This document shows positions 3,073-64,000 of a stretch of 64,000 bases of DNA, one piece after another. Below the pieces are notes generated by a model that saw only the letters and a program-made list of their open reading frames with translations, searched no databases and was not told the DNA's origin. The stretch comes from the human T2T-CHM13v2.0 reference genome, Homo sapiens, in the NCBI RefSeq assembly GCF_009914755.1, contig NC_060928.1. One strand, given 5' to 3'. Made by a program: the position numbers and the translations under genes. Numbering within the stretch: the first letter of the stretch is position 1; each line of letters starts with the position of its first letter.

Positions 3073-3759
3073 TGACTCAGTATGCTAGCTTTAGAGAGCA
3101 ACTGGCAAGATTTCTACCTATGAAATAGGCAGCCAGGAGGTTTAACGGTATGGCTCCTGTACTTTAAAGAAATTACTAAATAATATTTTTCTGCCTGAGT
3201 CATTTGGATTCTATTTCTGGACTTTGTGAGTATGAAGAGATCCATTTCATAAAAATATGCACTTCATCCATTCTAATAGAATAAGAGGACCTGGCTCCAA
3301 ACTACTACTTTAAAAAACAAAAACAAGCAAACAAAAACCATTGACTCACAGGTCCAGAGATAAGTTTCCCTTAACAAAGTCATTATGAATATACAAGCTA
3401 TTATAGGTTACAATCATGACCAAAGCTGACTTTCAGCTAAGACTTCTTCTAGCTAGAAAGGCAGCAGGACAGCAGTTTCCTAAGTTACAGTGGTACATGA
3501 GCCTGAGGAGACAGCAGAACTGCCTGAGGCAAGAGGCAGCAGAATTTCAGTTCTTCAGTCCCCAAAAGAATTCCAAACACTGTTCTATCTCAGTAATTTC
3601 TAGCCTTTAAATTCTGATTGATCCTGAGCCCAGTGTTTTCTACACTGAAGTTCAAGCTGAAGAGGTGCTACAAAATTTTAAAACACATAGCATCTCTGGG
3701 CTACGAATAACACAGGCCTTTCCCAACTCTACTAAATAAATTCCTTCTGGAATGAGTCA
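3073..3759. promoter_or_regulatory. Homotypic AP-1 motif cluster (candidate enhancer)
   Basis: TGA(C/G)TCA at 3073, 3196, 3342 and 3753. The last overlaps a TEAD-type GGAATG. Confidence 0.45.
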
Positions 3760-4129: not shown

Positions 4130-4630
4130 AGAGAGAGCCATGGAGAAAGGCAGTGCTATAGAGGGGCTGAAGATGCCAGCCCTGGAGTCAGGCAAATCTG
4201 GGTTAACTGCGACTCGGCTCCTACTAGCTGGGGGGGGGCTCTGGGCATGCACTGTCTGCTCAAGCTCCTGTGTTTTCATCTACAAAATGTGCAGGAAGTA
4301 ACTTGCAGAATTGGGGCAGATTAAATGAAACACAGTGTGTAAAGAAGGAGTCTAGCCCATGTCCCTTCTCATGACTGTGGAACACAGAAACCTTGAAACT
4401 GCCTCAAACAGACGAATATGTATAAGACGAGAGGTTACCCACCGTTGCTTAGTTAAATTGCCTGGGTTAGAATCACAGCTCCATCACTTATAATCTGGAA
4501 GACCTCTATATTCCTCAACTTCCTCATCTTCCTCATCTCTAAAATGTAGCTCATCATAGTACCCACCTTATAAAGTTGTTGAGAGAATGGAATGAGAGAG
4601 TGCTGGGAAGATGCTTAACCAAGTACTACC
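4130..4630 (+). mobile_element. Two MIR SINE copies (~4130-4350 and ~4440-4630)
   Basis: MIR core motifs 'ctgtgttttcatctacaaaatg', 'ttcctcatctctaaaatg...agtacccaccttataaagttgttgagag'. Confidence 0.7.
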
Positions 4631-4644
4631 ACATTGTTGTGGTC

Positions 4645-4971
4645 GTCTGTCCATGTATGCAGGATGACTTTAAAAATATTAACTGAGTTTCTTTATTGTA
4701 GAGAGGCTGGAAGTTACTGAGATAGAACAGTGTTTGAAATTCTTTTGGGGACTAAAGAACTGAAGACTAAAAGCATGAACACAGAGCACAACTGGTCACT
4801 AAGGTATTTACGGCCTAATGAAAAGGTGTTGGAACAGGGGACACAGCACTGTCAGCCTAAGGTACCAAGAGTTGCAAGTGAAGTGTTCATTGTGTAATCT
4901 CCCTTAGATTAATTGATCAATGTCTGTCTATGTGTATAGGGTGACTTTAAAAATATTAACTGAATTTCTTT
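4645..4971. repeat. Dispersed ~50-bp direct repeat (4645-4694 and 4922-4971)
   Basis: gtctgtccatgtatgcaggatgactttaaaaatattaactgagtttcttt vs gtctgtctatgtgtatagggtgactttaaaaatattaactgaatttcttt. Confidence 0.9.
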
Positions 4972-13538: not shown

Positions 13539-15962
13539 GAGTATTCTCTCTTTTTTTCTCTTTTCTGTCTACTTGCATATAATGCAAGTATTCCTTCATT
13601 AATTCACTCATCCTACAAATTTTAATATGCACATGCTAAGTGCTGGGAAGACAGCATGAAGAGGGCAGACTCAGTCCCTCCCTGCCTCCTCAGAACTCAC
13701 AGTCTAAAGCAGTCTTTATTCCATCTAAAATGCAAAAAGAAAAATAGACTGTTTTTTATTAGTGTCATTCCAAATGGACTTCTTTATTATGACTTTAATT
13801 GCTTGTAAAGCACCTAGTAGATCTCTGCCCACTTCAAAAGGATCCTTGATAAGTATGCATAAGATAGCTCAGCAGGGTGCAAGCTGCATGCAATTATTTC
13901 TTAGTTAATCCCTTTATAGATGAGTCTACTTGTGAAGTGTCAGGATAGAGTACCTAACATGGGGGAAGAAAAGCCTCCATTCTTATTGGTTCATGTGTTT
14001 CATATTGCCTGGTGAGCCTCTGCTCTTCATTTTCAGGAAAGTGTCATTGAACAGACATCTTTGTGTCATCTAACATGTGTTTAGTGATTACTTTATCTGT
14101 AAGTAGTGAAGATCATACTAAAAGATTGCTCCCTCTGTCTAGTTAAAGCTGACAGCGTTGTCACTACTTCAGTGATAGATTCAATACCCCAGCTTCTTTT
14201 CATGAGTGTGTCTTATTCTATAGCCAAGAAATACAGATGGTTTGAGAACAGACAAAGCCTGCTGTAGCCAATGGATTCAATGTCACATTCTTAGAGTTAA
14301 TATCAGACAAGGAAGGTTTATTTAAAGTTTGTTTTTCCTTTATCCTATACCCCAGACCTTATTCTTTGCTTTCAATGTTGAAATGGTTAGTTGGGTCAAC
14401 TACTTAATGCTAATTTTTTGAAGGTGTTTTCATGGAAGATGATTTGTCCTTTTCTCCTCCCTAATTCTTCTATCTTTTCCTGACAACACATGTTTATTCC
14501 AGTAATGGCATCTAGGGTAAATATTCCTATCTTAATGTGTAAGAATGATTCTAATGGTGGGAATTTCTAGCCAGGATAGATAGGAAATCTAATCATCAAG
14601 GAAATTATTTTGATAAATTGAGACTAAAAGAATTTCTTAAGTAACTAGGTATGTAGCTAGAGCTACTGATGATAACAGCAAAGAAAATATTTGAAAGGGG
14701 TATTGTTTTTATTCTGTATACCCCCTTCTTGTCTGGAATTAGTTGGAATCAAAGTGTTCTTCCTCAAAGACATTTTAATGGCCCGTCCTATTTGAAGGTG
14801 AGGACAATGCTCAATTTCTGATATAAGCTAGCCTATCACACAGTTCCTTTTGGTTGCTGAAAGGGCAATTCTTGACACTGGCATTCATTGATTTTGATTT
14901 TTCTGCTAAGCTTTCATTCCATCATTTTTTTCCCACCTTGAAAAAAAAAATAATCCTGAGCTACATTAAGATGAACAAGATCTTAGCAAATAAATGTACT
15001 AGAAAAAAGCCAGGACCTCAGTAGAATTATGTACCTGGTACTAAGAGGGAAGGAGACAAGGAGTTTGCTGAAGCAGTTGGAATAGAGAATAGGAATGGTC
15101 AGTCAACCAATCAGCAATGAACAATGAAAAGGTCAAGCTACTTTTGAACATTACCGTGTCTTTCACAGGCTAAAGTGAGCATTAAAATTCTGAAGTCTTG
15201 CTTGCTTCCCAAAGTTTAGCAAGAAGAGAAAATGGCACACCAAGACTGTACAATATTTAGAAATGGTTTGAACATCTGGCGGTAAATATGAGGTCACCTT
15301 TGGAGCACTGCCGTCAACCTGGTCACGCTCGCCATCCCCACCCCACCCCCAGTCCTTGCGTCTCACTTCATGCATATCCATGGGGCAGCTGCCTGATTGG
15401 TAAATCAGACAGAATTCTTCAAAAGGCACCTGGGGGGCCGACAATCACAATAAATATTACAAGTTTGTCTTCACACAGACCTTTCTTCAGGAGGTCTTCT
15501 AGGCTAGCCAGTTTAATTGTTATGGCTGCTCTTTTTTCTCTCATGTGGGATTGATGAAGCGCAGTGGCTTCCCTGAGGTCACCCAGCAGGATGGGTTCAC
15601 TACCAGAAGTTCCTATACTGCTTAGAGAATCAATGATGTTGCAGAATAGAGTTCTGTAGGAGCCAACAAAAATATGTCAGTGAGTTTTACAAAGGACTTT
15701 TTAATAAAACAGCAAAATCCACTTCTGTTCCAGGTCATTTCAGTGGGCTGTGCTATGTTATTTCAGTGGGCTTCCCCAACACCAAAAATCAACCAAATGG
15801 GAGCTAAATTTTGTAGTATTTGGTAGTATAAATAATCCCAAGTGGAGATTTAAAGACATCGAATTTTCTACATTTTAAAGACATCGAATTTTTCAAACAA
15901 GATCCACTTTACCATTTATGTTCTTTTTGAGTCAACGACAATCAATCTGCATTTTCCTAACA

Positions 15963-26118: not shown

Positions 26119-26157
26119 AAATGGCAAAAACTGCAATAACTTTAAAAACTAATATTA
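26119..26157. mobile_element. Half of a MADE1 (Hsmar1-derived MITE)
   Basis: aatggcaaaaactgcaataacttt matches the MADE1 arm AATGGCAAAAACCGCAATTACTTT. Confidence 0.6.
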
Positions 26158-26859
26158 TGTATAATTTTATATATGCACATATATGTATGTATGTGTGTGT
26201 GTATAAAATTATCTGCCCTACTTCTTTCTCTATGCTCCTTGAGAGCTCGGACAGGGTCTTATTTCTTCTCTGTGTCCCATCATCTAAGACAGTACTTGGC
26301 ACAAAGTAGGTGCTCAACAAATAATTGCCAAATTTTTTGCTGCTGTTATTTTTATGTTCTTAGGGAAATCAGGTATTAGAAAGTGGAACACTACCCATGA
26401 ATTTTGACACCTCTCTTCAGTGAGCTGTAAGTAATAGGTATAATATTGAAATTTGAATGAATAATTATCAGAAATCCTGAGTGAATCCTGAGGAGAAGTA
26501 TATCCAGCAGGAATAAATTCTTGCTCCAACTTCAAAATTAAAAATAAAATGTAGACATTTCCTTTATTTCCAAAAATTTACTTAAAATTCTAAACTTAAA
26601 TAATCCATTAATTATATCAAACTTTATCCCATCCCCCTCATTTCTCACACCACCCTAACTCCAATATTCTATTGTTCTTAAGAAAGAAAGAGAACAGCCT
26701 TATACAAGTCAGAGAGAGCATCCTGTTGATGACCTGTTGGAGTGTCTCTTCAGCTGGAGTATCTCATTTCTTTTTGAAGGCTACGGTGGGCACCTAGAGA
26801 CAATAGATTCATGTTTAACCCCTACACACCCTTCCCTGGGCTGAAACCTACACTTTTCA

Positions 26860-27100: not shown

Positions 27101-28937
27101 AATAGGCACTCAATAAGCATGCCTTAAATAAATGGATGCCAGCTTTCCAAGAAGAGAAACTACAACAAGTTGTCTAAAACTATAGTTTAAGTAAGTCCTA
27201 TATGATTGACTAGAGGGATTCAGTAGGTTTTCCTGGCCCCCAAAAAATATTTCACAACTCCTAAAATTCCACCATTGAAAATCATTATTTTTAATAAGGT
27301 CCTTTAACTATAAGGTCTTGTTCGACTATTAGTAACATATCATCACCATCATCTTTTAAATCATTATTGCTACATTATGTCAATTAACCCCCAAAACCAT
27401 TCTTTGAGTTCAGGTCTCTTATTATTCCCATTTTATACATAAGGAAAATAGGGCACCAGAGGAAACTTTGTGCAAGGACACAAAGCAAAAAAATGGTAGC
27501 ACTAGGATTTGAACCCAGGTAATATGGCCCCTGAACCTACAATCAGAGGCATCATGTCTACCATTCATTCATCATGAAATAAATAAATATTTATTGAGTA
27601 CCTTCCATGTACCAGAATCCATGCCAGGCTCTAAACATGAGATGAGTGAGCACCCATGCTGGAGGCAGAGTATACCCTAAAAAAAGCATGGGAAAAAGCA
27701 GAAGAGGGAGGTGGTTAGAATGTGTGGAATAAAAGAGATGAAGGAATAGAATTCTATCTTTGCTTATCATATGTTTACTGGTCACAAAACTTGTAACTCC
27801 CCACAGGATTTGGCTTCTGCTTTAACCACCAGTCTTGCTTCTTTCAGAGTAGCCTCTGAGCACGGCTTCCGGAGACTATTCGCCCTACTAAAGGCTGACT
27901 CCATCACTTATGACCTGGAGCAATTATCCATTAGTCTCTCTGAGTTTCATTGCTGAAACAGGGATGTTAACTCTTACAGCCTGCCTCATCAAACTGGTAG
28001 TTAAGTTTGATGAGTACAGTAAATTAAGTAAATGAGTACTAGGTAGAGTACTAGAAATTTTCTTTTTTTCCCAAACAGCTTCTTCTAGAAAATTTGATTC
28101 TGACAATCCGTTTGGTTAATGATCTGGAAGCCTTCGTGCAATCAAGCTGCTTCCAAGACTGAAAAAGAAAAAAAAAATCCCTCCTACTATATCCTTGAGA
28201 AAAAGGAATAATGTGCAGTTCCCTAAAGACTTCTTAAAAGACAGATAAAAATGTTTGAGCAGTTGATGATTTTTTAAAAAGTAGAAACATCTGGACATCT
28301 CATCCCCCTGGTCTAGACCCATCCTCATGCCAGATTTTTTCCCTACGTAGCTATTTGGAATTACAGTAATAGTTATCTTTGGTTGACTGAACTGAGGAGC
28401 TAGGAGCCATAGCATATTCATTTAAAATTAAAAGGAAATTTAAAAAAAAAACTAAAATCTGAACTACTGGCTCTGAAAGACTTCTTAAACTCAAAATCAA
28501 ACTCAATTAAATTTCATATCAAGTTCCATTCCACCTGAGCCTTAAACTTATGCTTTATTCATTTATTATTCATATCAATAATTATTTTTGTATTCACTAT
28601 TTTTATTTCTATGTATTGTTTATTTATAGCTCACTCATCATGTAATATTAACCAGGCAATAACACAGGCCCTGATGGAAAGGTGGACTCCTTTTTCATTT
28701 ACTTTTATAAATATTTCAAACTAGTAGCCAAAATGCACAATTCCTACATTTTTATATAAGCTCTTTGATGTGCTAGGTTATGAAGTACTACAAATTCTTC
28801 ACCATGAGTCCCAAAAGAAGTGTTTATTAGAACTGCCCCCAAACTTCTCTGCATTTAAGAAGATGCTCAAACATAGAAATGATAATGTCACTGATTATAC
28901 TGCAACAAAGAACAGGCTTCCCCAGCTATGTGGAAGA

Positions 28938-29145
28938 TATATACATACATATATATATATATATATATACATACACAGACACACACATATATATACACAT
29001 ATGTGTATATATGTATATGTGTATATATGTGTGTGTATATATATTCTTCTGTAATATATAGACACATACATATATGTATGTATATATGTATATATACATA
29101 TATATATACGTATATATGTATATATACATACGTATATATATATGT
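28938..29145. repeat. Compound (TA)n/(CA)n/(TG)n microsatellite
   Basis: About 200 bp of mostly alternating purine-pyrimidine sequence. Confidence 0.97.
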
Positions 29146-29261
29146 AGCAGAGAAGAAGAGAAAACCACAGAGTCACAGACCAAATAGAGAAAATGACCAC
29201 CATGTTTATTTAGAAAATTGGTTTATATCTATCTCTGTGCTGACTCTAAACCAGGTTTACA

Positions 29262-36900: not shown

Positions 36901-37080
36901 TTACCTTGTAAAACAGGATGGATTTTTTGCCCATGTTTGCAATCTTAGTAATTTACAAAGCTCTTCTTAGTCATTCAGAGTCAGAGCAGCAAAAGTACTG
37001 CCACCTCTCACCTCCTAAAAAGTTTTAGCTAGGGCCAGAGCTTTGCACTGGTTCAGAGTGCTTGACTATATCCCTTAAGT

Positions 37081-37465
37081 CAGTGTTTCTTAAACTTCAA
37101 TGTGTATAAAATAGACCGTCAAATAAAAGACAGAATGCTCAGTTCAATTTGAATTTTAGGTAAAAACAAATGGTTTTTCAGTATAAGTATTTTCAAATAT
37201 TAAATAGGAAATATTTATACTTTTAAAATATTGTTTATTTGAAATTCAGATTTAACTGAGTGTCCTGGGGTTTTGTTTGTTTGCTTGTTTTTTTTTTTAA
37301 TCAGAATTACCTAGGATGTTTACAATGTAGATTTTCAGTTCCCAAACCTCATAGATTTGGATTTCACAATTCTATTGGTGAATCAGGGAACTTTTTTTTT
37401 ATTTCCTAAATAAGCACCTTGGATGGCTCCAGTGCACAGACTTGAAACCACTTTGAGAAACACTT
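37081..37465. mobile_element. MER5-type hAT-Charlie element
   Basis: Termini cagtgtttcttaaactt ... ctttgagaaacact. Internal 'tcagaattacctagg' and 'taaataagcacc'. Confidence 0.75.
37120..37275. mobile_element. MER53 palindromic MITE nested in the MER5
   Basis: cagaatgctcagttcaatttgaatttt...gtataagtat / atatttatac...gaaattcagatttaactgagtgtcctg is self-complementary, as in MER53. Confidence 0.85.
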
Positions 37466-38250
37466 CTTAAGCGGTAGAATATCGCCTGATGTACCTTCAT
37501 ATATCAGCAGCAAAATGTTTTGAATTTAAAGCTGCCGGTTATTTTACCTTTGCCATGGGAAGTCTAATATGTTTGCCCCCACTTCTAAAATCCCAAAGAT
37601 ACATAGAGTCCTTGATCACCCAGAGGGGACAGGCACAAACAATATGAATTTCTGTCAAGGGATAAACGAAGCCTATTACCTTTTACTTGTAATTTTCCCT
37701 TTTTTCACATATAGAATACACTGATTTCTGTTGCTGTATTCCTTTTGCAACTTGGGTATTATTTACAATAAATTGAATCCTTTCCATATTTGACATATTA
37801 CACTGATCTATGGCTTTGCTTTCATTTTGTCCTGTTAACTAGAAACCCACTTCATCATGAAATATGTTCCCCACACTTTTCCCCATAGTGAGTAAAAACA
37901 TTGATAAAGCATCATAAATTGTAGGTCATTTCTCAACTGCTTCCTGCTACAGTGAGGACTGGGAGAAGGAAAAGTAAGTACTGATCAATGGCCACTTAAT
38001 AAAATTTATGCTGAATGTATAGACAAAAAAGCACTGGACGTGTGAGAAGCCACACATATAGGATGCTTGCCTCACATCCGGACTTTGTTCATTACTCCGT
38101 AACACCAAAGGCAATTCAGCTTTTCTCTCTCTAGCAAATAAGTTCCACCCCCAAAATAAATTAATGAAGGTAAACTTTTAATGGTGATTTTGCCTAAGTC
38201 ATCCAGATAATTGAAACAGATATACCAAAACCATCAAGATATATATGCCC

Positions 38251-39016
38251 GCAGCTGGGAATAAAGTACTCTAAGCCAAGTATAATTAAGGCATATTGGC
38301 AAGTGCTTGTTTTCATAGCTGAATTTACTTATAAAGAACATTTTAATTTTACTAAAGCATGGCTTCCAGAGAAGAAAGGCTGATAAACCAATCAGTCTAA
38401 TATACCTAAGCCATCAGAATTAATATCTAGTCCTCCCTTTTATTCTGTGTAAATCTTGGGTACATAGAGTTGCTTAAAGCCCGTTTTGGACCAGAGATGT
38501 CAACCAACAACAACAACAACATTGATCGTGACACATATAATATCACCAATTTATTTAGATATGCTGATTTACTGTGTACCAACAAATCTACCAGGCATTT
38601 TACAAGTGCCATCTCGGGGAGGACATCACAGCAACATTTCACAAATGAGGAATTAATAATTTGACTCAGACCACAAGGTAAGGGATGGGCGAGTAAGAAG
38701 CAGGGAAAGAAAGAAGGGAGGTGGAAAAAAGGGAGACAGAGAAGTGTGATATCCTTTAAAACCTATTTGTTAGACCGTCTCCCAGTATTCTTTCTTAAAA
38801 ACACCCTGTAGAGTATTAAATATCTGAGATCATTAAATATTCCAGATAAATGATGCCTTTCTCTGTCACAGCATAATATTCACTTTATCAGCCTTTCATA
38901 GCAACTGTGCCTTAGCAAAATTAAAATGTTCTTTATAAGCAAATTCAGCTATGAAAATAAACACTCACCAATACACCCTAGTAATACATGGCTTAGAGTA
39001 CTCTAATCCCAGCTGC
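38251..39016. repeat. Long inverted repeat: arms 38251-38387 and 38884-39016, 496-bp spacer
   Basis: Hand alignment: 94 of 109 identical with no gaps, then a short divergent stretch and a perfect 14-bp inner match (gaaaggctgataaa). Confidence 0.97.
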
Positions 39017-41785
39017 AGTGTTTAGAATTGCAGGGTCCTCAAGGCAAGATGTGAAATATCCTTCTGCCAACTCTTCTCAACCACATATTGAGGAAAATGA
39101 ACCTGCCTCTCAGGATTGGTATGAAGAATAGCTTATAAAAATGAGTGTGAAACCCTTTGCAAATACCAAATGCTGTATGAATGTTAAGTAATAATAAAGA
39201 TCTGTATAAATGCAGCGAAGCAGCCCAACCTCCAGGTGCTTTTTCAAACTGGACACCAGCCATTTAAGATTCATCCATCATTCACTTTCGGGCATCCTTT
39301 TCTTTACGAAAAAATAAAATAGGCTGTCTACATTGCAAGGAAATGGAAAAATCGAATTTCAAAGCATATAAGCCCCTATACCTTGATCATTCAAACTAAT
39401 GGGTTCTGTTAGTGAGTTAATGAAGATAATGTTCGTGAAGTAATGAAGGGGTAAAAATATCAATTACAATTATGGCTTTGTTTTCTTCTCAGAAAGCACA
39501 AGATTCTAGCTGCAAGTAGATTTTGAAGACATGAAGACATGTGGTACACAGCCGCTATCACAGGGCAGGCATTATTCACTGTGTCTATCCCTAACTCCTC
39601 CAAGAACTCACTTGTCAGTAATCCCCAAGCATTGTTTGTCTCTATGTTGAAGAACAAGGAGGGGGTGAAATACAGTGTTCATGAGCAACATAACCACGAT
39701 GATTGTCATCCTGCAGCCCCTTGCAGCAAGAATGATAGAAAAAGAGAGAGAAAGAAAAAAACTCTTCCCCAGCAAACCATTTCCTCCAAAGACATGATTC
39801 ACTAACATTTGATTTGACAAGTTGTAGGCACTCCTAACATTATTTTTTTCCCCTTTGCTGTTCATTTGGGGAGCAAAGATTTATTGCCTCTCCTGAATAG
39901 GACAAGAGATGCACTAGAAATAAGAATCAATAAGGTTTTTCTTCTTTTCCTTGCCCATCTTTATAGAAGAAAACCATTTCTTCACTAGGTTCTTAATTCT
40001 TTTTTATTTCAAAATACAGTTAATCTTTTTCTGTAATGTTAAATAAAATTTGAAAACAGAAGGAAACAGTAGTCATGTTGTGGGGCAATGAGAGGTGATC
40101 CATTTGAAAGTCAAATACTCTTCCCATGTGAAGTTTCCTGGCCACACAGAGTCAATAGCCTCTGTCACTGGACTGCCCTCCTCTTTCAATGTAGTGCGCA
40201 TAAATCTGCCACACATGTGAGCCGTATTGTATATGGGTTTGCCCTGAATGTACACGAATAAAAACTATGCAAGATTTCATTCATAAAATCCCAAGCAATT
40301 ATTGTTTAATAAAACAAAGGTAAAAAGAGCTGGGTCCTAGTCCATGCAGATTTTGCTGGGTATCTAATGAAGTGCTTCATGAAACAAAATAAGCCAGGAG
40401 AGCTGGCACTGGGCTGCATCGAGTTTTACTCCTGGGTGCAAAAAAAGAGCATAGTATTTGTTTCCTCTCTGGTGGTAAGTGGATCTAAAGAGAAAACCAA
40501 AGAGGAACAAGTAAAGTTTATTCAATGTACAATATATGAAACTAATTTTTATGAGTGCTATCATGTTTTATCACCCTTAAGATAGGTATAATCTCCTGAT
40601 ATATGCATATCATATGCATGTATACCCTTTCAAAGCAGTCTTAGCTCTAGCTGTTAAAATGGCAGACAGCCTCTCAGCATTTCCATTATAAAACCTGATT
40701 TTCAGGGATTTATAACTAAACTGAAGATTTCCTTCAGAGTGAGGCAAGAATCACCAGGTCTCAGCTCAGAGCACAATTTTGCTTTCAGTTTTCTGGGAAG
40801 TTTGGTTTGGTCATTATCAAGTTATGGAAATGCAAAAATAAATACATCAAAGTTTATAGGGATCTGGTTTTTTTCCCTCTATTTTTTTTAACCCGTAGTA
40901 AAGCTTTCAAATAGCTTGGTTATCTGAAAAGACACTTAGTCCAAAATATGGATTTCTTTCTTAAAATGGCTGCAACTTTGACATTTAAAGATTGGTTATT
41001 ACACATGCATAGAAGCTGCTTCCCCAAAAGCTACTCAGCAGTACTGTGCAATATGGTATGTATCACGCATACTTAATGCCCACTTGCCAAATGATCCTCT
41101 CCTATTGCTGGACTGAGGAAATGGCTTTTAACAGGAATGACAAATATATTACCAATTCAATTATTGCTTTATTATATTGCACTCTTTAAAGATTGCTTGA
41201 AGAGTAGCATAGATTGTGCAAAAACTACTTAATTTCATGCATCATTCTAAAAGTAATTATTTACTTCCAAATTAATATTAGCTGAAAGACCTTAAATCCC
41301 TTGCCACCAACGACTTCTAGAAAACATTATGGTGATTCTTTACAGGGTCCAGAGAAAATAATTAACAACAAGATAATGCTTAATTAGCATTCACATAATG
41401 CACCATTATAGTTTCAGACAAAGAGGCAATAATATTCCACATGCTCCAAAATGTATTTCCAAACACACAGATTTCAATCAAGTCTAAATAGGTTCATTGA
41501 AAAAAATAAAGTTCAATTCATTGTGACTCTTAGCTGCATAGTATTTCTTTCCCTTGATGAAAATTCTTATGTAATACACTTATAAAAAGACATACTTACA
41601 AGATGTTTATACAAGGTGTGATCATAAAGCTTTTGCACAGCCACTTGAATATCATCATTATAACAAATCCACATTCTTTTGGGAGCAAACTTATTCGAAA
41701 CAAACAAAGACATTACCAGACGAAACTTGTGAATGAGGCTGACATATGAGTTTTGGTTTGAATATAGCCTGATGAGACTGGGGTT

Positions 41786-57609: not shown

Positions 57610-58680
57610 AAGCGACTTGTAACTTTTTATTTTGAAATAATTTCAAGCTTACAGAAAATGCTCAGGAATAGTACAGAGAGCTTCCATACACATGTCACCC
57701 ATAATCACCAATTGTTAACATATTATAACATTTGCTTTACCATTCTTTCTTTCTCTGTGTGTGTGAGAGAGAGAGTGAGAGAGAGAGAGAGACAGAGAGA
57801 GAAAGAGAGTGTAATTTTTTTCTGAACCATTAGATAGTCAGTTGCAGACATAATGCCTTTTTGCCACTAAATATATCAGTATATGTTTCCCAAGATCAGA
57901 GACATTTTCTACCATAATCAATTATCAAAATCCAGAAAGTAACATTGGTGCAATACTATTATCTAACCTGCAGAACCTATTCACATTTCCCCATATTTGT
58001 CAATTATCCAGATAATGCTCTTTCTAGGAAAATAACCTCTGACCATTATCACACATTGCATTTAGTTGCCACATCTCTTAAATCTCAATCTGATACTGTT
58101 CCTCGGTTTATATTTTTCTTTCATTATCTTGACTATTTTTAAGAGACACATCAAGCTATTTTGAGGAAGGCCCCTCAATTCGGCTTTGTCTGATGTTTCC
58201 TTACTATCAGGTTAAGACTATGCATTTTTGGCAGTATTGACACAGATGTGGCGCTTTATCCACCTCAGTGCATCGTATTAAGAAATATGTGATGTTGGTC
58301 TGCACTCATTACTATGACATTAACTTTAATCACTTGGTTTCTCCAATGTCAAATTCCTATTTCTCATTTATTTAATATGTGTTTTCTAGAAAGATGCTTT
58401 GGAACTATGTAAATGTACTGTTCCTGATAAACTTTTACCCATTAGTGTTAACATTTATTGATGATCTTTTCATAAATCCATACTACCAAGATGTTTGCTA
58501 AAAGGTGATTTTCTAACTCCATTATTTCTCTTCTGTGTATTAGCTGGCATTCTACTGTAATTAAGGGTTTTTCCTTTTTTCCCATTTATTTATATCAGTG
58601 TAGTATTATAAATTCTTGTTTTATTCAATGGTTTGAAAGCCATTGCTATCATTCTGATGCTCACATTGTCCCAGTAGAAG
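57610..58680 (-). mobile_element. L1MC-type 3' fragment containing (GA)n
   Basis: 'tttttattttgaaataatttcaagcttacagaaa...gaatagtacagagag...gttgcagacataatgcc'. Confidence 0.7.
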
Positions 58681-58849
58681 CCATATTGTACTTTTATACA
58701 ATAAAATACCCCAAAAAATGGTACAATGAGTGAGCCCTCTTTAAATGTCCTATCCAGTCCTGACTTTGAAAGAACTTACCATGGGGCTGCATCTCTGGTG
58801 TTTTTTTCTTATGTGTGTCATGGGTATGCATTCATAAGAATGATAATAA

Positions 58850-59430
58850 ATCGTGATATAAATTTACTAAGAATTCACTATGTGCCAGGCTTATTGTTAA
58901 GCACTTTACCTACATCACCTCATTTAATCTTTTTAAAAACCTATAAGGCATATTTTTATGGTTATAATGCCTGTTTTGTAATTGAGTAAACTAAGCCTGA
59001 GAAAAGTTAAATAAAAGCCAGAAAATAGGAAAACTGGGGCTTTAACCTGGGTCATCTGACTCCAGACATTTTTTTCCTCTGAGCTATGCTTAGGTCTTAA
59101 GATTCCTAAAGGGTGGAGAAAGACTGTACTTGGTAAACACCCACATCCCTACTTCCTTAGGTGCAAGGCTCTGCATTCAGAAGATCAGCCTGGTGTGATG
59201 ATGTTTTGATGTTTCAGAGCACAGATACTAGAGTGAGGCTGCCTAGATTCTAATTTGTGCACTCCCATCCATGAGCTGTTCCACCTTGTCTTCCAGGAGT
59301 TTCAGTTTCCTCCCATCCAAAACAGAGATGAGAATAAGAACACTCCACAGAATTGTTTTAAAAATTGAGAGGGAGCATGCAGGTAGAGCACCTGGCATTG
59401 TGGCATGGCACGTAATAGACACACAATACA
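58850..59430. mobile_element. Two oppositely oriented MIRs (~58850-59090 minus, ~59200-59430 plus)
   Basis: 'cactatgtgccaggc...ctgactccaga' and 'ttcagtttcctcccatccaaaac...gagcacctggca'. Confidence 0.7.
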
Positions 59431-61589
59431 AATTTAAAAAAAAAATACTAAGATGGCCACAGAACAAAATCTCTGCTTATTATTTTTAAGTTGAGCCATA
59501 CCTATGCTATAATCATCTCTTTGATGTAGCTTAAAGTATTTCTTCCAAGAAGCAAAAAATATTTATTGCTGCCCAACGACTGCTATCTTCTGACTTCTGA
59601 CTCTCTGAGATTCTGAAGGCTTCTCTAAGAGTATCTTAAGATATTTTGTGCCCAGTCCAAATTTGGCTTTCATTAGCCATTAAAATCAAGGAAAACTTTA
59701 AATCAGGGCATAAAAGAGACTTTTCCTACGCTTAGCATCACATTAGCATGTGAGGGACTCTGCATCAGCAAAAATTTTTTTTAATCAACCTAAACCTCTG
59801 ACTAAATTAATAAGAGTTGAGTTTGACCTTTAAAATGCTAAAAAATACAGTTCCCAGTATAATTCTTGTTCATCCCTGGACCAAACCATTCTCATAGTAA
59901 ATTATGGCACTAACAGCTGGCTGCCAATGAAGTCAACTATTAATTGTATGTTCACTGCACTGCCTGATATAAATCAATATGAGCAATGAGCAATTGTCCT
60001 CAGTCTCTAGATACAAAGATCTTACATTGCAAAATAATTTAAGGTTGGCTGTCAGCCTTCTTAGACTAGATGTCATTCGGTCTTCCCTTTGCTAAAGATA
60101 TGATAAAAATGAACACACATTGAAAACCCGCCTGATCTACTGTCTCTGCAGCAAACTTGTAGTCATCTCTATGAAAATGACAGTAGAAATGGTTTTTGAT
60201 TGTGTATTCCAAAGAAGCAACATCTACATTTTTACAAATCCCAGTGAAATCTGAAGAATGGGTCTCACAGAATCACTACTATCTCAAACTCTCAAAATTT
60301 CTTGTCTGTTCACCCCCTTTTACCTTCACTCCCTCCTTTCTACCAACTTGCTCTCCATCTTCAAAAAGGCCACCAACTACCCTGTTTTCCTAGTTCCCAT
60401 TTTTATTCCAACTTCTCTCATCTCTCTTCCCAGTTTCAGTCTCATGGACACTAAGAGCTAGTGACATTCTCACTTTACAGCCAAGCATTCCCATCTTGGG
60501 AACCCCTTACCCTAAGCCATCCCACTGTTCCCCTTTTTTAACTCCTGGGTCACAGAGTATTGCTAGGGGATATGAGGAAATGACACTGACAGGACCTGTG
60601 ACAAATCCACATCATCTAACTCTGGTGGGCCCTCTATAAAACTCAACAATATTTAAATGCATGTTTTGCAAAGTTGCTTCTATAAGACATTCTCAGAATG
60701 CTCGTGTGAGTGAAGGATCCCATGGTTCCAGACCAGTTTGGAAAACACTGGTTTAAATTCAGTTAAACAAGTTCTTTTCTGCAGAACTTAGTGGAGCCTG
60801 GTAGGCATTGTGGGTTTCCAAATGGGGATTATATATGCACCATTTCTCAAAAGTTTTATCTAAAGAGTGACTTTTTCACAGAACAACCACATCTAGTATT
60901 CTGTGAAACAAGTTGGGGAAATACAATATTAACTCATTTTGTGTTCATTCCTAACACACTTGTTCTGAACCATGTTTACCCTAAAAACCCTAGACCCATT
61001 CTAGCCTTCTCAGCTGTAGCAAATGACTGAATTTACATAGAAGCTAGAGACTTTTTCACATAATCTCTTCAGCTTCCCTCCTTTTCCTCTTCCATTTTTT
61101 TCCCTCCTCCCTGCTAAGCTGAGGAAGTGGAGAGAGAGCACCCTGACAAGTCTACTTCTTTTCCTATCTCAAGATCCTGTCCCCTCACTCCCTCCACAGA
61201 AATCTCCATCTGCCACTCTCACTCCTTACATTTGAAACCCCTCTTGGTGTCTTCCCTGTATCTACAAACATGTCAGCAGTTATATAGCATAAAACCTTTC
61301 TCAATCAGCTGTCATACTGTCTTCCACTTCTCACTGTCCCTCACCCTCTACTCTGGCCAAGACAAACTACTCCTTGAATATGCCCTGCACTTTCTTGACT
61401 GCAGGCCTTTGCTCATGCTGTTAAGCCTAACTACGGTTATTACCATCTTCCCCATCGCATGCATAAATTCACCCCATAGCATTCCATGACCCAGCCAAAC
61501 AAACAGGATCTCTTCTGCCTCTATTCTTTTAATACCTACCATGTTCTATTTTGTTTATATTTTTAGAGGCTCTATAAAAGTGTTTAAAT

Positions 61590-62600
61590 CATCTTTATTG
61601 AGCTATAATTGACAAAATGTACCTATTTTAAGTGTACAGTTTAATGAGTTTCAACAATGCATACATTCATTTAACCATCACCGTAATATAACATTTTCCA
61701 TGACTCCAAAAAGTTTCCTTAAGTCTACCCATGGTCAGCCTAGACAACCACTGATCTGCTTTTTGTCACCACAATTTTGCCTGTTTTGTAAATGGAATCA
61801 ATATTTGCCTATCCCATAAGTGGGCGTAATATTCAATAAATATCAATTATGTTAGTTGATATTGTTGGTTAATAGTATTGTCCAATTCCTCTCTAACTTC
61901 ACTGATTTTCTGTCTACTTCCATCAACTATAATATGGATGACCTATTTCTCCTTTTAGTTCTGTACTTAGATGAATATTTGCTATGCCTTCTTGATGAAC
62001 TGGCCCTTTTATCATTGTAAAATATCTTTCTTTGTTTCAGATAATAGTCTTTGTCCTGATGTCTTCTTTATCTGTTGTTAGCATAGTCCCCTCAGCTTTT
62101 TGATGATTAGTGTTAGGTTGTATCTTTTTTTTTTTGAGTCTTTATATTTAATAAACTTTATTATATGTAGATACCATATAAATTGAATCTTGATTTTTTT
62201 CCAACCTGGTAATCTCTACCATTTAATTGAAATATTTAAACCATTTACATTTAAGTTGATTATCAATAGCTGGGTTTAAGTCAACTCTGTTACTATTTTT
62301 ATTCTACCTATCCCATCTTTTCTTCCTTCTTGTTTTATTGTGGATAAATTGAATATTTTTTAGGATTTTTTTATCTCAACTATTGGCTTGTTAGTTTTAT
62401 CATTTTAGTTGTTTCTCTATAACTTACAATATGCATCATTAAGTTATCATAGTCTTCTTTCAAATAATGTTACACTTTATATGTAATGAAAGAATCTTAC
62501 AATTCCTCTACCTCATCCTTTATTTTACTGTTGAGATTTTAATTTGATGTTATGAATTCTACAATAAGTGATTACTTTTTTTGCTTTAGACAGATAATTA
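61590..62600 (-). mobile_element. Old L1M fragments
   Basis: 'ctttattgagctataattgac...taagtgtacagtttaatgagttt' followed by a T-rich ORF2 complement. Confidence 0.7.
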
Positions 62601-62809
62601 TTAATGATTTCCACTTTTGGAATGGATTTTCATAGCAAACCTCCAGCTATTACCAGAAAAATTCTTCATAAATAATACCTATAAATTATGAAGAAAGTAA
62701 TTTTAAAAACAATTACCTCAAGGCACTGAAGAGTGAAGAAAAACAAGCAGGAACAAGAAGGAAGTCGACTGGAAGAAGGGAAGGGCACTGGATAAATTTC
62801 CCATTTTAG

Positions 62810-63088
62810 GGGGTTTGTTTTTTTGGTATTTTTGGCGATTTAAGGGGTGCACGTGCTTGTTTGTTACATGGATATTAATGCATAATGGTGGGGGTTGGGC
62901 TTCTAGTGTACCCATCACCCAAATATTGGACATTACATCTAGTAAGTAGTTTTTTCACCCATTATTCCCCTCCCACTCCCACTTTGGAGTCCCCAGGGTC
63001 TATTTTCTCCATCTTTAACTCCACATGTACCATTTGTTTAGCTTCCACTTATAAGTGAGAGCATGCAATATTTGATTTTCTGCTTCTG
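62810..63088 (-). mobile_element. L1PA16/L1PB-like 3' end
   Basis: 'ttgttacatggata...tagtgtacccatcacccaaata...ttagcttccacttataagtgagagcatgc'. Confidence 0.85.
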
Positions 63089-63089
63089 T

Positions 63090-64000
63090 ACTACATTTTT
63101 TATTGTTTTTAGCTTGAGGGACAGCCCAGTCTTCACTAAACAGAACTTTCAAAACTCTGACGAAAAACCCCCAGTCATATTGGCCTGAGGAAGCAGACTA
63201 TGTAAATCACAATAATCAACAGCTACTGGAAATTGATGGCAGAAATCCCAGAGAAATTAGAGTTAATAATGGGAACCCCAGAATTCAAATTCTGGTATAA
63301 ACTTTACCAAATCTCTGGCTAACACCTGAGCCATGCATGTCTTAGACAGATCCCAAACAGCCCAGTGACGACTAGGAAAATTAAATGAAAACTAAGCTGC
63401 CATCCACCAGAGGGAAAACACAAATTGAAGTCTAAGTTCAGCCAAGTAAACTGCCTGAAAAAAAACTAAATACTTTCCAGAAGAGTATAACAAAATCCAG
63501 AGTTTCTACAACACATTATTTACAATGTTTAGAATACAGCCTAAAATTACTCAGCATACAAAAAAAATAAATAAATGATGAATTCTTAAGAGAAAGTGCA
63601 ATTAGAGAAAACTAATCATAGTTTCCCAAAAGTTGGAATTAGCAGAGGTTTTAAAGCAGTTTTATAAGTATGCACAAAGATGTAAAGGAAAATATGTTCA
63701 TACTGAATTAAAACAGAATATCTCAGCAAAGAAACAGAAACTATAAAAAACACATGGAAATTCTGTCGTTAGAAAATACAATATCTGAAACAAGAAATTC
63801 ATTGGTGCATATTAATAGTACAATGTAGATAATAGAAGAATCAGCATACTTAAAGATAAATAAATAGAAATCACACAATCTAAATTGCAGAGAGAACAAA
63901 GATTGAAAAAGCTTTAACATAGTTTCAGGGATCTGTGGTATGCAATAAGTTTATTGTCTATGTATTTGGAATCCCAGAAAGAGATAAGAGAAAGAATGGG
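63090..64000 (+). mobile_element. Old L1M 5'/ORF1 region (runs off window)
   Basis: 'gaatatctcagcaaagaaacagaaactataaaaaa...ggaaattct...gaaaatacaatatctgaaa' is ORF1-like. Confidence 0.7.

What the first reader, a model, noticed from the sequence alone, without database searches (positions are those of the whole stretch)
38251..39016. ~135-bp non-Alu inverted repeat whose mismatches favour a minus-strand RNA duplex
Seen (hand alignment): the arms match at 94 of 109 positions without gaps, plus a perfect 14-bp inner stem. Of 15 mismatches, 10 become G-U pairs in a minus-strand RNA, 2 in a plus-strand RNA, and 3 are A/T transversions (10:2, two-sided binomial p about 0.04). A minus-strand transcript would therefore pair 104 of 109 positions around a 496-nt loop. 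I do not recognise the arms as a known repeat family or TIR. Inference: a maintained long intronic RNA duplex, acting as an ADAR substrate, small-RNA source or splicing loop-out. Alternative: transcription-associated A>G asymmetry on a neutral inverted duplication, which would still imply minus-strand germline transcription.
Basis: partly seen in the sequence, partly recalled or inferred. Interest (0 to 1): 0.8.

Follow-up and report, generated by a model that had tools for sequence, protein, structure and literature searches.

The report
Single-copy old inverted duplication near NKX6-1
A real, one-of-a-kind inverted repeat of about 135 bases sits in the gene desert beside NKX6-1, but it looks like a decaying relic of a local copying error, and the strand bias that suggested a maintained RNA hairpin is not statistically solid.

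Summary
The arms 38251-38359 and 38908-39016 match at 94 of 109 positions, and a perfect 14-bp inner stem leaves a 496-nt loop. The 15 mismatches split 10 minus-strand G-U, 2 plus-strand G-U and 3 A:A. With one 4-nt indel the arms are 137 and 133 nt.

It is not a multi-copy transposon. Each arm finds only itself and its partner in the whole T2T genome, and the loop and both flanks are unique. The same search recovered 57 matches at 68-83% identity for a neighbouring old MITE. There is no target-site duplication and no Rfam family.

The 10:2 bias is overstated. Four of the ten come from two CpG sites that decayed to CpA in both arms, and each such site counts as one trial. The split is then 8:2, p = 0.11. 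A second unique inverted repeat in the window splits 2:2. The whole window has a weak skew of the same sign, of the size published for untranscribed DNA 3' of CpG-island genes. No gene is annotated here, so "intronic" has no basis.

Best reading: a neutral, roughly primate-age local inverted duplication. Conservation, editing and transcription could not be tested.

The parts
38251..38387 (.). Left arm of the inverted repeat (137 nt, 34% G+C, no CpG left)
   Evidence: In the whole genome it matches only itself and the right arm.
38388..38883 (.). 496-nt spacer or loop, unique in the genome. It holds a short (CAA)n run at about 38501-38521, a purine-rich tract at about 38676-38744, and all 5 CpGs of the element.
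   Evidence: Sequence. CpG positions. The 766-bp query found nothing outside the locus.
38884..39016 (.). Right arm of the inverted repeat (133 nt, 35% G+C)
   Evidence: In the whole genome it matches only itself and the left arm.
38360..38373 (.). Poorly matching stretch with a 4-nt indel between the 109-nt outer block and the 14-bp inner stem. Its partner is 38898-38907.
   Evidence: Gapped alignment.
38292..38301 (.). Two tandem mismatch pairs, 38292-3 with 38974-5 and 38300-1 with 38966-7. Both arms read CA on the plus strand, which is the signature of an ancestral CpG that decayed to CpA in both arms. These pairs supply 4 of the 10 'minus-strand G-U' mismatches.
   Evidence: Mismatch table with sequence context. 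No CpG remains in either arm.

Best explanation
This is a single-locus, non-transposon inverted duplication. About 135 bp was copied in reverse complement roughly 0.5 kb away, most likely by a replication or repair template switch or fold-back. An alternative origin is as a by-product of a small inversion of the spacer. Both arms have since decayed neutrally. The divergence between the arms (K2P 0.156, about 0.08 per arm) puts the event, or the last gene conversion between the arms, at roughly early-primate age. The excess of mismatches that would be G-U in a minus-strand RNA comes from chance, from non-independence (two CpG sites that lost the same strand's cytosine in both arms), and at most from the weak strand asymmetry that affects the whole region. 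If a minus-sense transcript ever crosses the site, it would fold into an imperfect duplex of about 135 bp and would be an ordinary ADAR substrate. Nothing indicates that this is selected. Shown: the repeat, its uniqueness in the genome, the absence of transposon hallmarks, the mismatch classes and the regional skew. Inferred: the mechanism of origin, the age and neutrality.
For: 1. Uniqueness. The left arm, right arm, whole 766-bp element and both roughly 1-kb flanks each find only this locus in the 3.1-Gb assembly. The first look gave 2, 2, 1, 1 and 1 candidates. As a positive control, the MITE at 37100-37300 gave 263 candidates, of which 40 were scored, and 57 matches at 68-83% identity.
2. 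No target-site duplication of 4-10 bp at any boundary within about 15 bp of the arm ends. The 4 hits all need at least one boundary set inside an arm and come from GCAG/AGCT words of the self-complementary terminal GCAGCTGC (three of them) or a nearby chance GCAG (the fourth).
3. No Rfam family in 37000-40300 apart from a sub-threshold mir-1302 match 1 kb away.
4. The mismatch spectrum looks neutral. There are 12 transitions and 3 transversions, or 8:3 without the CpG sites. There is one indel with a degenerate stretch next to it. All CpGs are lost from the arms.
5. The strand bias falls to 8:2 independent units, two-sided p = 0.11. A second unique inverted repeat, 3546-3606 / 4704-4764, splits 2:2.
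6. The window-wide skew is A>T and C>G on the plus strand. It is seen in 46 of 64 1-kb bins for A>T and 44 of 64 for C>G, and (A/T)(C/G) = 1.19. This matches the sign and roughly the size of the replication-linked asymmetry reported 3' of CpG-island genes (PMC2817419, sections read).
7. Template switching is documented as a one-step source of inverted repeats with or without an inverted spacer in the human lineage (PMC5453318, passages). Non-repetitive predicted dsRNA-forming repeats occur at about 2 per Mb, about half of all predictions are intergenic, and over 99% of all predictions are unconserved (PMC11838218, sections read).
Against: Neutrality was not tested directly, because no orthologous sequence, editing data or RNA data are available here. 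Even after correction the split still leans to the minus strand (8:2). At the regional asymmetry I infer (p about 0.52-0.55), P(8 or more of 10) is only 0.07-0.10. The minus-strand RNA is clearly more stable: -176.8 against -147.7 kcal/mol for the arms alone, and -292.8 against -252.8 for the whole element. Mismatches are fewer in the inner half, 3 of 50 against 12 of 59 (Fisher p = 0.048, split chosen post hoc). That could mean constraint or gene conversion. The documented short template switches are tens of bases long, so 135 bp copied over 0.5 kb is larger than that class.
Confidence: 0.7

Rival explanations
1. Neutral inverted duplication, as above, but the G-U bias is real and records long-term minus-sense germline transcription across the site. 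The source could be read-through from NKX6-1, whose 3' end lies 53 kb away and points toward the window, or an unannotated lncRNA.
For: The bias points the right way. The whole window is G+T-rich on the minus strand. NKX6-1 is on the minus strand and the window lies 3' of it (annotation given with the finding). Intron-level asymmetry of 1.4-1.6 (PMC2817419) would give p about 0.58-0.62, under which 8 of 10 is unremarkable.
Against: No gene is annotated. The skew product of 1.19 is close to the 1.09 reported for untranscribed intergenic DNA 3' of CpG-island genes, not to 1.4-1.6. Twelve mismatches cannot separate a ratio of 1.1 from 1.5. The other unique inverted repeat in the window splits 2:2.
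Confidence: 0.12
2. A selectively maintained minus-strand RNA duplex that acts as an ADAR substrate, a small-RNA source or a splicing loop-out.
For: 104 of 109 positions pair in a minus-strand RNA against 96 of 109 in a plus-strand RNA. The minus-strand fold is 29-40 kcal/mol more stable. By the published scoring for predicted dsRNA, as I computed it, the score is 292 against a threshold of 75.
Against: The statistical basis drops to p = 0.11. There are three A:A mismatches, one indel and a degenerate 10-14-nt stretch, as in plain decay. No gene or intron is annotated, and no Rfam family matches. An arm divergence of 0.156 points to a repeat far younger than mammals, so deep conservation is unlikely. 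Published conserved dsRNAs are short and weakly paired, and over 99% of predicted dsRNAs are unconserved (PMC11838218).
Confidence: 0.07
3. A solitary or extremely low-copy MITE-like DNA transposon with terminal inverted repeats of about 135 bp.
For: The architecture, long terminal inverted repeats around a 0.5-kb core, resembles non-autonomous DNA transposons. An old MITE sits 1 kb away.
Against: There is no other copy in the genome at a sensitivity that recovers 68-83%-identical copies of an old MITE. There is no target-site duplication.
Confidence: 0.04
4. A DNA-level role: the arms mediate inversion of the 0.5-kb spacer, or they are duplicated regulatory sequence in the NKX6-1 regulatory desert.
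For: Inverted repeats flank micro-inversions, and 50-250 bp is quoted as the minimum homology for recombination (PMC8755829, passages). The arms exceed 130 bp. The inner half has fewer mismatches.
Against: There is no evidence of regulatory activity at this site. The only RefSeq functional element in the window is at 13582-14189. The heterogeneity test is post hoc and marginal (p = 0.048).
Confidence: 0.05

Closest known systems
Non-repetitive predicted dsRNA-forming inverted repeats of the human genome (dsRNAscan catalogue, Andrews & Bass preprint, PMC11838218)
   Same: Two nearby reverse-complementary arms that do not derive from a repeat family, with a loop under 10 kb and well over 70% pairing once G-U pairs are counted. 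It is intergenic, as about half of the catalogue is. That class is reported at about 2 per Mb (sections read).
   Different: I could not check whether this locus is in their table. Only a PDF supplement is held, and it has no hit for chr4, NKX6, 8443 or 8444. At about 135 bp it is below their '>300 bp, >96% paired' class of putative MDA5 ligands.
Inverted repeats created by replication template switching (four-point model, PMC5453318; hairpin and miRNA birth, PMC8794818 and PMC10710096, seen in the search listing only)
   Same: A reverse-complement copy of nearby sequence arises in one step, with or without an inverted spacer, and yields a hairpin-capable locus without selection.
   Different: The documented events are tens of bases long and very local. 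Here about 135 bp lies across about 0.5 kb. The ancestral state is unknown, so the mechanism is inferred.
MITE-type DNA transposons with long terminal inverted repeats (for example the MER53-like palindromic element at 37100-37300)
   Same: Terminal inverted repeats and hairpin-forming potential.
   Different: The neighbouring MITE has at least 56 other matches in the genome. This element has none and no target-site duplication.
Inverted Alu pairs as ADAR substrates
   Same: An imperfect duplex of over 100 bp would form if the site is transcribed. ADAR's preference for such duplexes is established knowledge.
   Different: It is not Alu and not repetitive. No transcript is annotated, and editing was not tested.

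Membership tests
TIR DNA transposon / MITE | Multiple related copies dispersed in the genome | tested here: not met
   The arms, the whole element and both flanks match only this locus. The control MITE gave 57 matches.
TIR DNA transposon / MITE | Target-site duplication directly flanking the terminal inverted repeats | tested here: not met
   A scan for direct repeats of 4-10 bp at boundaries within about 15 bp of the arm ends found only 4 trivial GCAG/AGCT-type hits, each needing a boundary set inside an arm.
TIR DNA transposon / MITE | Terminal inverted repeats | tested here: met
   Arms of 137 and 133 nt, 84-86% complementary.
TIR DNA transposon / MITE | Match to a curated consensus (Dfam/Repbase) | not testable with these tools
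Non-repetitive predicted dsRNA (dsRNAscan criteria) | Score of at least 75 (+3 per pair including G-U, -4 per mismatch, -12 per gap), at least 70% paired, arms within 10 kb | tested here: met
   For the 109-nt block I computed 292 on the minus strand and 236 on the plus strand. The criteria are from PMC11838218, section 5.
Non-repetitive predicted dsRNA (dsRNAscan criteria) | No overlap with annotated repeats | tested here: inconclusive
   The locus is unique in the genome by my searches and lies outside the masked stretches listed with the finding. RepeatMasker itself was not run.
Functional, conserved RNA duplex | Arms conserved above the flanks, with compensatory changes across species | not testable with these tools
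   Only the human assembly is held.
ADAR-edited dsRNA | Transcribed, with clustered A-to-I sites in both arms | not testable with these tools
   No expression or editing data are available. No gene is annotated in the window.
Rfam RNA families (miRNA and other hairpins) | Covariance-model match | tested here: not met
   cmscan of 37000-40300 at E up to 1 found nothing in the repeat. The only hit is mir-1302 at 37176-37226 (-), 37.4 bits against a gathering score of 62.
Template-switch-generated inverted repeat | Reverse-complement copy of adjacent sequence | tested here: met
Template-switch-generated inverted repeat | An outgroup shows the ancestral state without the copy, explained by a single event | not testable with these tools
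   No outgroup genome is held.

The most novel reading that the evidence does not exclude
The repeat is a primate-born hairpin locus that arose in one step by template switching. It is transcribed on the minus strand, by NKX6-1 3' read-through or by an unannotated transcript in islet or neural cells, and gives a G-U-tolerant duplex of about 135 bp. Selection has begun to preserve that duplex as an ADAR-edited dsRNA or a small-RNA precursor. The residual 8:2 strand bias, the cleaner inner half and the 29-40 kcal/mol advantage of the minus strand would be its first traces.
Probability: 0.06. Interest if true: 0.5.

Novelty: new member of a known kind. Interest (0 to 1): 0.15.

Why it matters
If the neutral reading is right, it matters little. 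It is one more of the few thousand non-repeat inverted duplications in the human genome, and a worked example of a pitfall: CpG decay in both arms of an inverted repeat creates paired, same-strand 'G-U' mismatches that inflate a strand-bias test. If the duplex were maintained, it would be a rare non-Alu, lineage-specific structured RNA in the regulatory desert of a key beta-cell and neural transcription factor. It would also be a case of hairpin birth by template switching.

Tried and rejected
1. Multi-copy transposon: rejected by five whole-genome searches, calibrated by a positive control.
2. Target-site duplications: none found.
3. Known RNA family: none found.
4. Outward or inward extension of the homology: none beyond 38251 and 39016. 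Inward there is only the 14-bp stem after a 4-nt indel.
5. Regional strand asymmetry as the full explanation of 10:2: rejected. The skew product of 1.19 implies about 52-55% minus-type mismatches, not 83%. It may contribute.
7. The dsRNAscan supplement was searched for the locus. Only one PDF is held and it has no hits. The large tables and the web resource could not be seen, so I cannot say whether the locus is already catalogued.
8. Mismatch clustering (outer 12 of 59, inner 3 of 50, p = 0.048) is noted but not used, because the split was chosen after seeing the data.
9. Two paper-tool calls failed on term syntax. I re-asked the first with plain words. I replaced the second by reading sections of another paper.

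Full report
**1. The observation**

- The repeat finder reports arms 38251-38359 and 38908-39016: 109 nt, 86% complementary, 548 nt apart. It also reports a perfect 14-nt inner pair, 38374-38387 / 38884-38897, 496 nt apart.
- A base-by-base comparison gives 94 of 109 matches and 15 mismatches. Ten are plus-strand A:C or C:A, which read as G-U in a minus-strand RNA. Two are plus-strand G:T or T:G. Three are A:A. The two-sided binomial p for 10:2 is 0.0386.
- A gapped alignment joins the outer and inner blocks through one 4-nt indel. 38251-38364 pairs with 39016-38903 (96 of 114), and 38369-38387 pairs with 38902-38884 (16 of 19). The arms are therefore 137 and 133 nt.
- Beyond the outer ends, 6 of 24 positions match, about what chance gives.
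- Folded as RNA, the 786-nt stretch gives -292.8 kcal/mol on the minus strand (z = -15.3) and -252.8 on the plus strand (z = -10.7). None of 20 shuffles reaches either value.
- The arms alone give -176.8 (minus) and -147.7 (plus) kcal/mol.
- It is the longest inverted repeat in the window. Of the 25 pairs shown out of 28, 23 involve the TA/CA-rich simple sequence at 28937-29146 (one of them, I24, pairs it with 26156-26204).

**2. It is not a transposon family**

The window's own assembly (3.1 Gb, 24 contigs) could be searched.
- The left arm finds 2 candidates and 2 matches: itself and the right arm, at 82%. The right arm gives the mirror result.
- The whole 766 bp finds 1 candidate, which is the locus itself.
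- The flanks 37310-38250 and 39017-40000 find 1 candidate each, themselves.

I calibrated the search on the palindromic element at 37100-37300, which has a sub-threshold mir-1302 match. That query returned 263 candidates, of which 40 were scored, and 57 matches at 68-83% identity. The search therefore sees old, diverged repeat families. The arms are 86% alike, so sister copies of a family of the same age would have been easier to find than those.

A scan for direct repeats of 4-10 bp at any boundary within about 15 bp of the arm ends found only 4 trivial hits. Each needs at least one boundary set inside an arm. Three come from the self-complementary terminal GCAGCTGC and the fourth pairs it with a chance GCAG just beyond the right arm.

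Rfam finds nothing in the repeat.

The arms are a locus-specific inverted duplication. No Dfam or RepeatMasker library was available, so a curated-library check remains to be done.

**3. The strand bias**

The 12 transitions are not independent, however.
- At 38292-3 / 38974-5 and at 38300-1 / 38966-7, both arms read CA on the plus strand, where the reverse-complemented partner reads TG. This is the classic signature of an ancestral CpG.
- No CpG survives in either arm. All 5 CpGs of the element lie in the loop.
- When a paired CpG decays in both arms there are three outcomes. CA/CA gives two minus-type mismatches. TG/TG gives two plus-type mismatches. CA/TG stays complementary and leaves nothing to see. 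Each visible site is therefore one coin toss that yields two mismatches.
- Counted properly, the split is 8:2, two-sided p = 0.11.
- Without the CpG sites, transitions to transversions are 8:3, which is an ordinary ratio.
- The only other non-simple inverted repeat in the window is 3546-3606 / 4704-4764: 61 nt, 93% complementary, 1,097 nt apart. Its arms also match only each other in the genome. It splits 2 plus: 2 minus.

**4. Regional asymmetry**

The whole window has A>T and C>G on the plus strand.
- The counts are A 21,175, T 19,163, C 12,272 and G 11,390.
- The A>T skew is positive in 46 of 64 1-kb bins, and the G-C skew is negative in 44 of 64.

My inference uses a transitions-only model at equilibrium. 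There, (A/T)(C/G) = 1.19 equals the product of the two rate ratios that favour minus-type over plus-type mismatches. That means about 1.09 each, or p of about 0.52. At p = 0.525, P(8 or more of 10) = 0.075. At p = 0.6 it is 0.17. The regional bias has the right sign but cannot by itself produce 10:2.

The bias does not imply transcription either. Polak & Arndt (PMC2817419; abstract and sections 8, 14, 16 and 18 read) report the following.
- In intergenic DNA 3' of CpG-island genes, on the gene's non-template strand, A>G/T>C is about 1.09 and stays constant over hundreds of kb. They attribute this to replication.
- In introns the ratio is 1.4-1.6.
- C>T/G>A is symmetric in intergenic DNA.

The window lies 28-92 kb 3' of NKX6-1, which is on the minus strand (annotation supplied with the finding). 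That NKX6-1 has a promoter CpG island is recalled, not tested here. The minus strand is thus the strand expected to carry the mild A>G excess without any transcript.

**5. Age and origin (inferred)**

The K2P distance between the arms is 0.156, or 0.115 without the CpG sites, which is about 0.08 per arm. The neighbouring MITE is 68-83% identical to its genomic relatives, so the duplication is roughly half as old as that family's copies. Using recalled primate-lineage neutral rates of about 1e-9 per site per year, and faster earlier, this suggests about 45-70 Myr. It could be older if the arms have exchanged sequence by gene conversion. The inner half has 3 of 50 mismatches against 12 of 59 in the outer part (p = 0.048, post hoc), which would fit conversion.

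Template switching in replication or repair is a documented one-step source of inverted repeats, with or without an inverted spacer, on the human lineage (PMC5453318, passages). Inverted repeats also flank micro-inversions (PMC8755829, passages). Those documented events are mostly tens of bases long. This one is larger, so the mechanism is a best guess rather than a demonstrated membership.

**6. Comparison with what is known**

A genome-wide prediction of dsRNA-forming inverted repeats is available (PMC11838218; abstract and sections 5, 9, 10 and 12 read). Its main figures are these.
- It counts about 5.1 million structures.
- Non-repetitive ones are sparse, about 2 per Mb.
- About half of all predictions are intergenic.
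- Over 99% have arm phastCons below 0.5.
- Conserved ones are short and weakly paired.

By that paper's scoring, the 109-nt block here scores 292 on the minus strand and 236 on the plus strand, against a threshold of 75 (my arithmetic). The locus therefore belongs to that known, mostly unconserved class. I could not see the paper's tables, so I cannot say whether this locus is listed.

**7. Verdict**

The functional inference is not supported. It rests on a p of about 0.04 that becomes 0.11 once CpG pairing is handled, and on the word 'intronic', for which there is no annotation.

The best-supported reading is a neutrally decaying, roughly primate-age local inverted duplication (confidence 0.7). 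Four rivals remain.
- Real minus-sense germline transcription acting on a neutral repeat: 0.12.
- A maintained RNA duplex: 0.07.
- A DNA-level role: 0.05.
- A solitary MITE: 0.04.

Conservation, covariation, editing and expression are the decisive data, and none could be examined with the tools at hand.

Noticed in passing
window 37100-37300 (Rfam hit 37176-37226, minus strand): A palindromic MITE-like element with a sub-threshold mir-1302 match (37.4 bits against a gathering score of 62, E = 0.0005). It has 57 matches at 68-83% identity across the genome. That mir-1302 derives from MER53 is recalled, not tested.
   Followed up: partly
window 3546-3606 and 4704-4764: A second inverted repeat that is not a repeat family: 61 nt, 93% complementary, 1,097 nt apart. 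Its arms match only each other in the genome. Its 4 mismatches split 2 plus-strand G-U : 2 minus-strand G-U. Two unique inverted repeats in 64 kb is more than the roughly 2 per Mb reported for non-repetitive predicted dsRNAs, although the definitions differ.
   Followed up: partly
window 28937-29146 (also 26156-26204): TA/CA-rich simple sequence that accounts for 23 of the 25 inverted-repeat pairs listed for the window. It coincides with masked stretches.
   Followed up: no
window 1-64000, strongest at 58001-64000: A persistent compositional skew, with A>T and C>G on the plus strand. The G-C skew reaches -0.16 to -0.19 in the last 6 kb, where the A-T skew changes sign. This may be a local repeat or a boundary of a skew domain.
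   Followed up: no
window 38501-38521 and 38676-38744 (inside the loop): A short (CAA)n run and a purine-rich tract of about 70 nt (pyrimidine-rich on the minus strand). Just before the tract, the plus strand reads CAAG|GTAAGG at 38674-38683, which resembles a 5' splice site. With no annotated gene this is probably chance.
   Followed up: no
window 4520-4604 and 4645-4694: Short stretches inside the spacer of the second inverted repeat match about 9 places on other chromosomes at 76-86% identity, plus one nearby copy (87734922-87734971 on the chromosome). This is probably a fragment of an old dispersed repeat.
   Followed up: no
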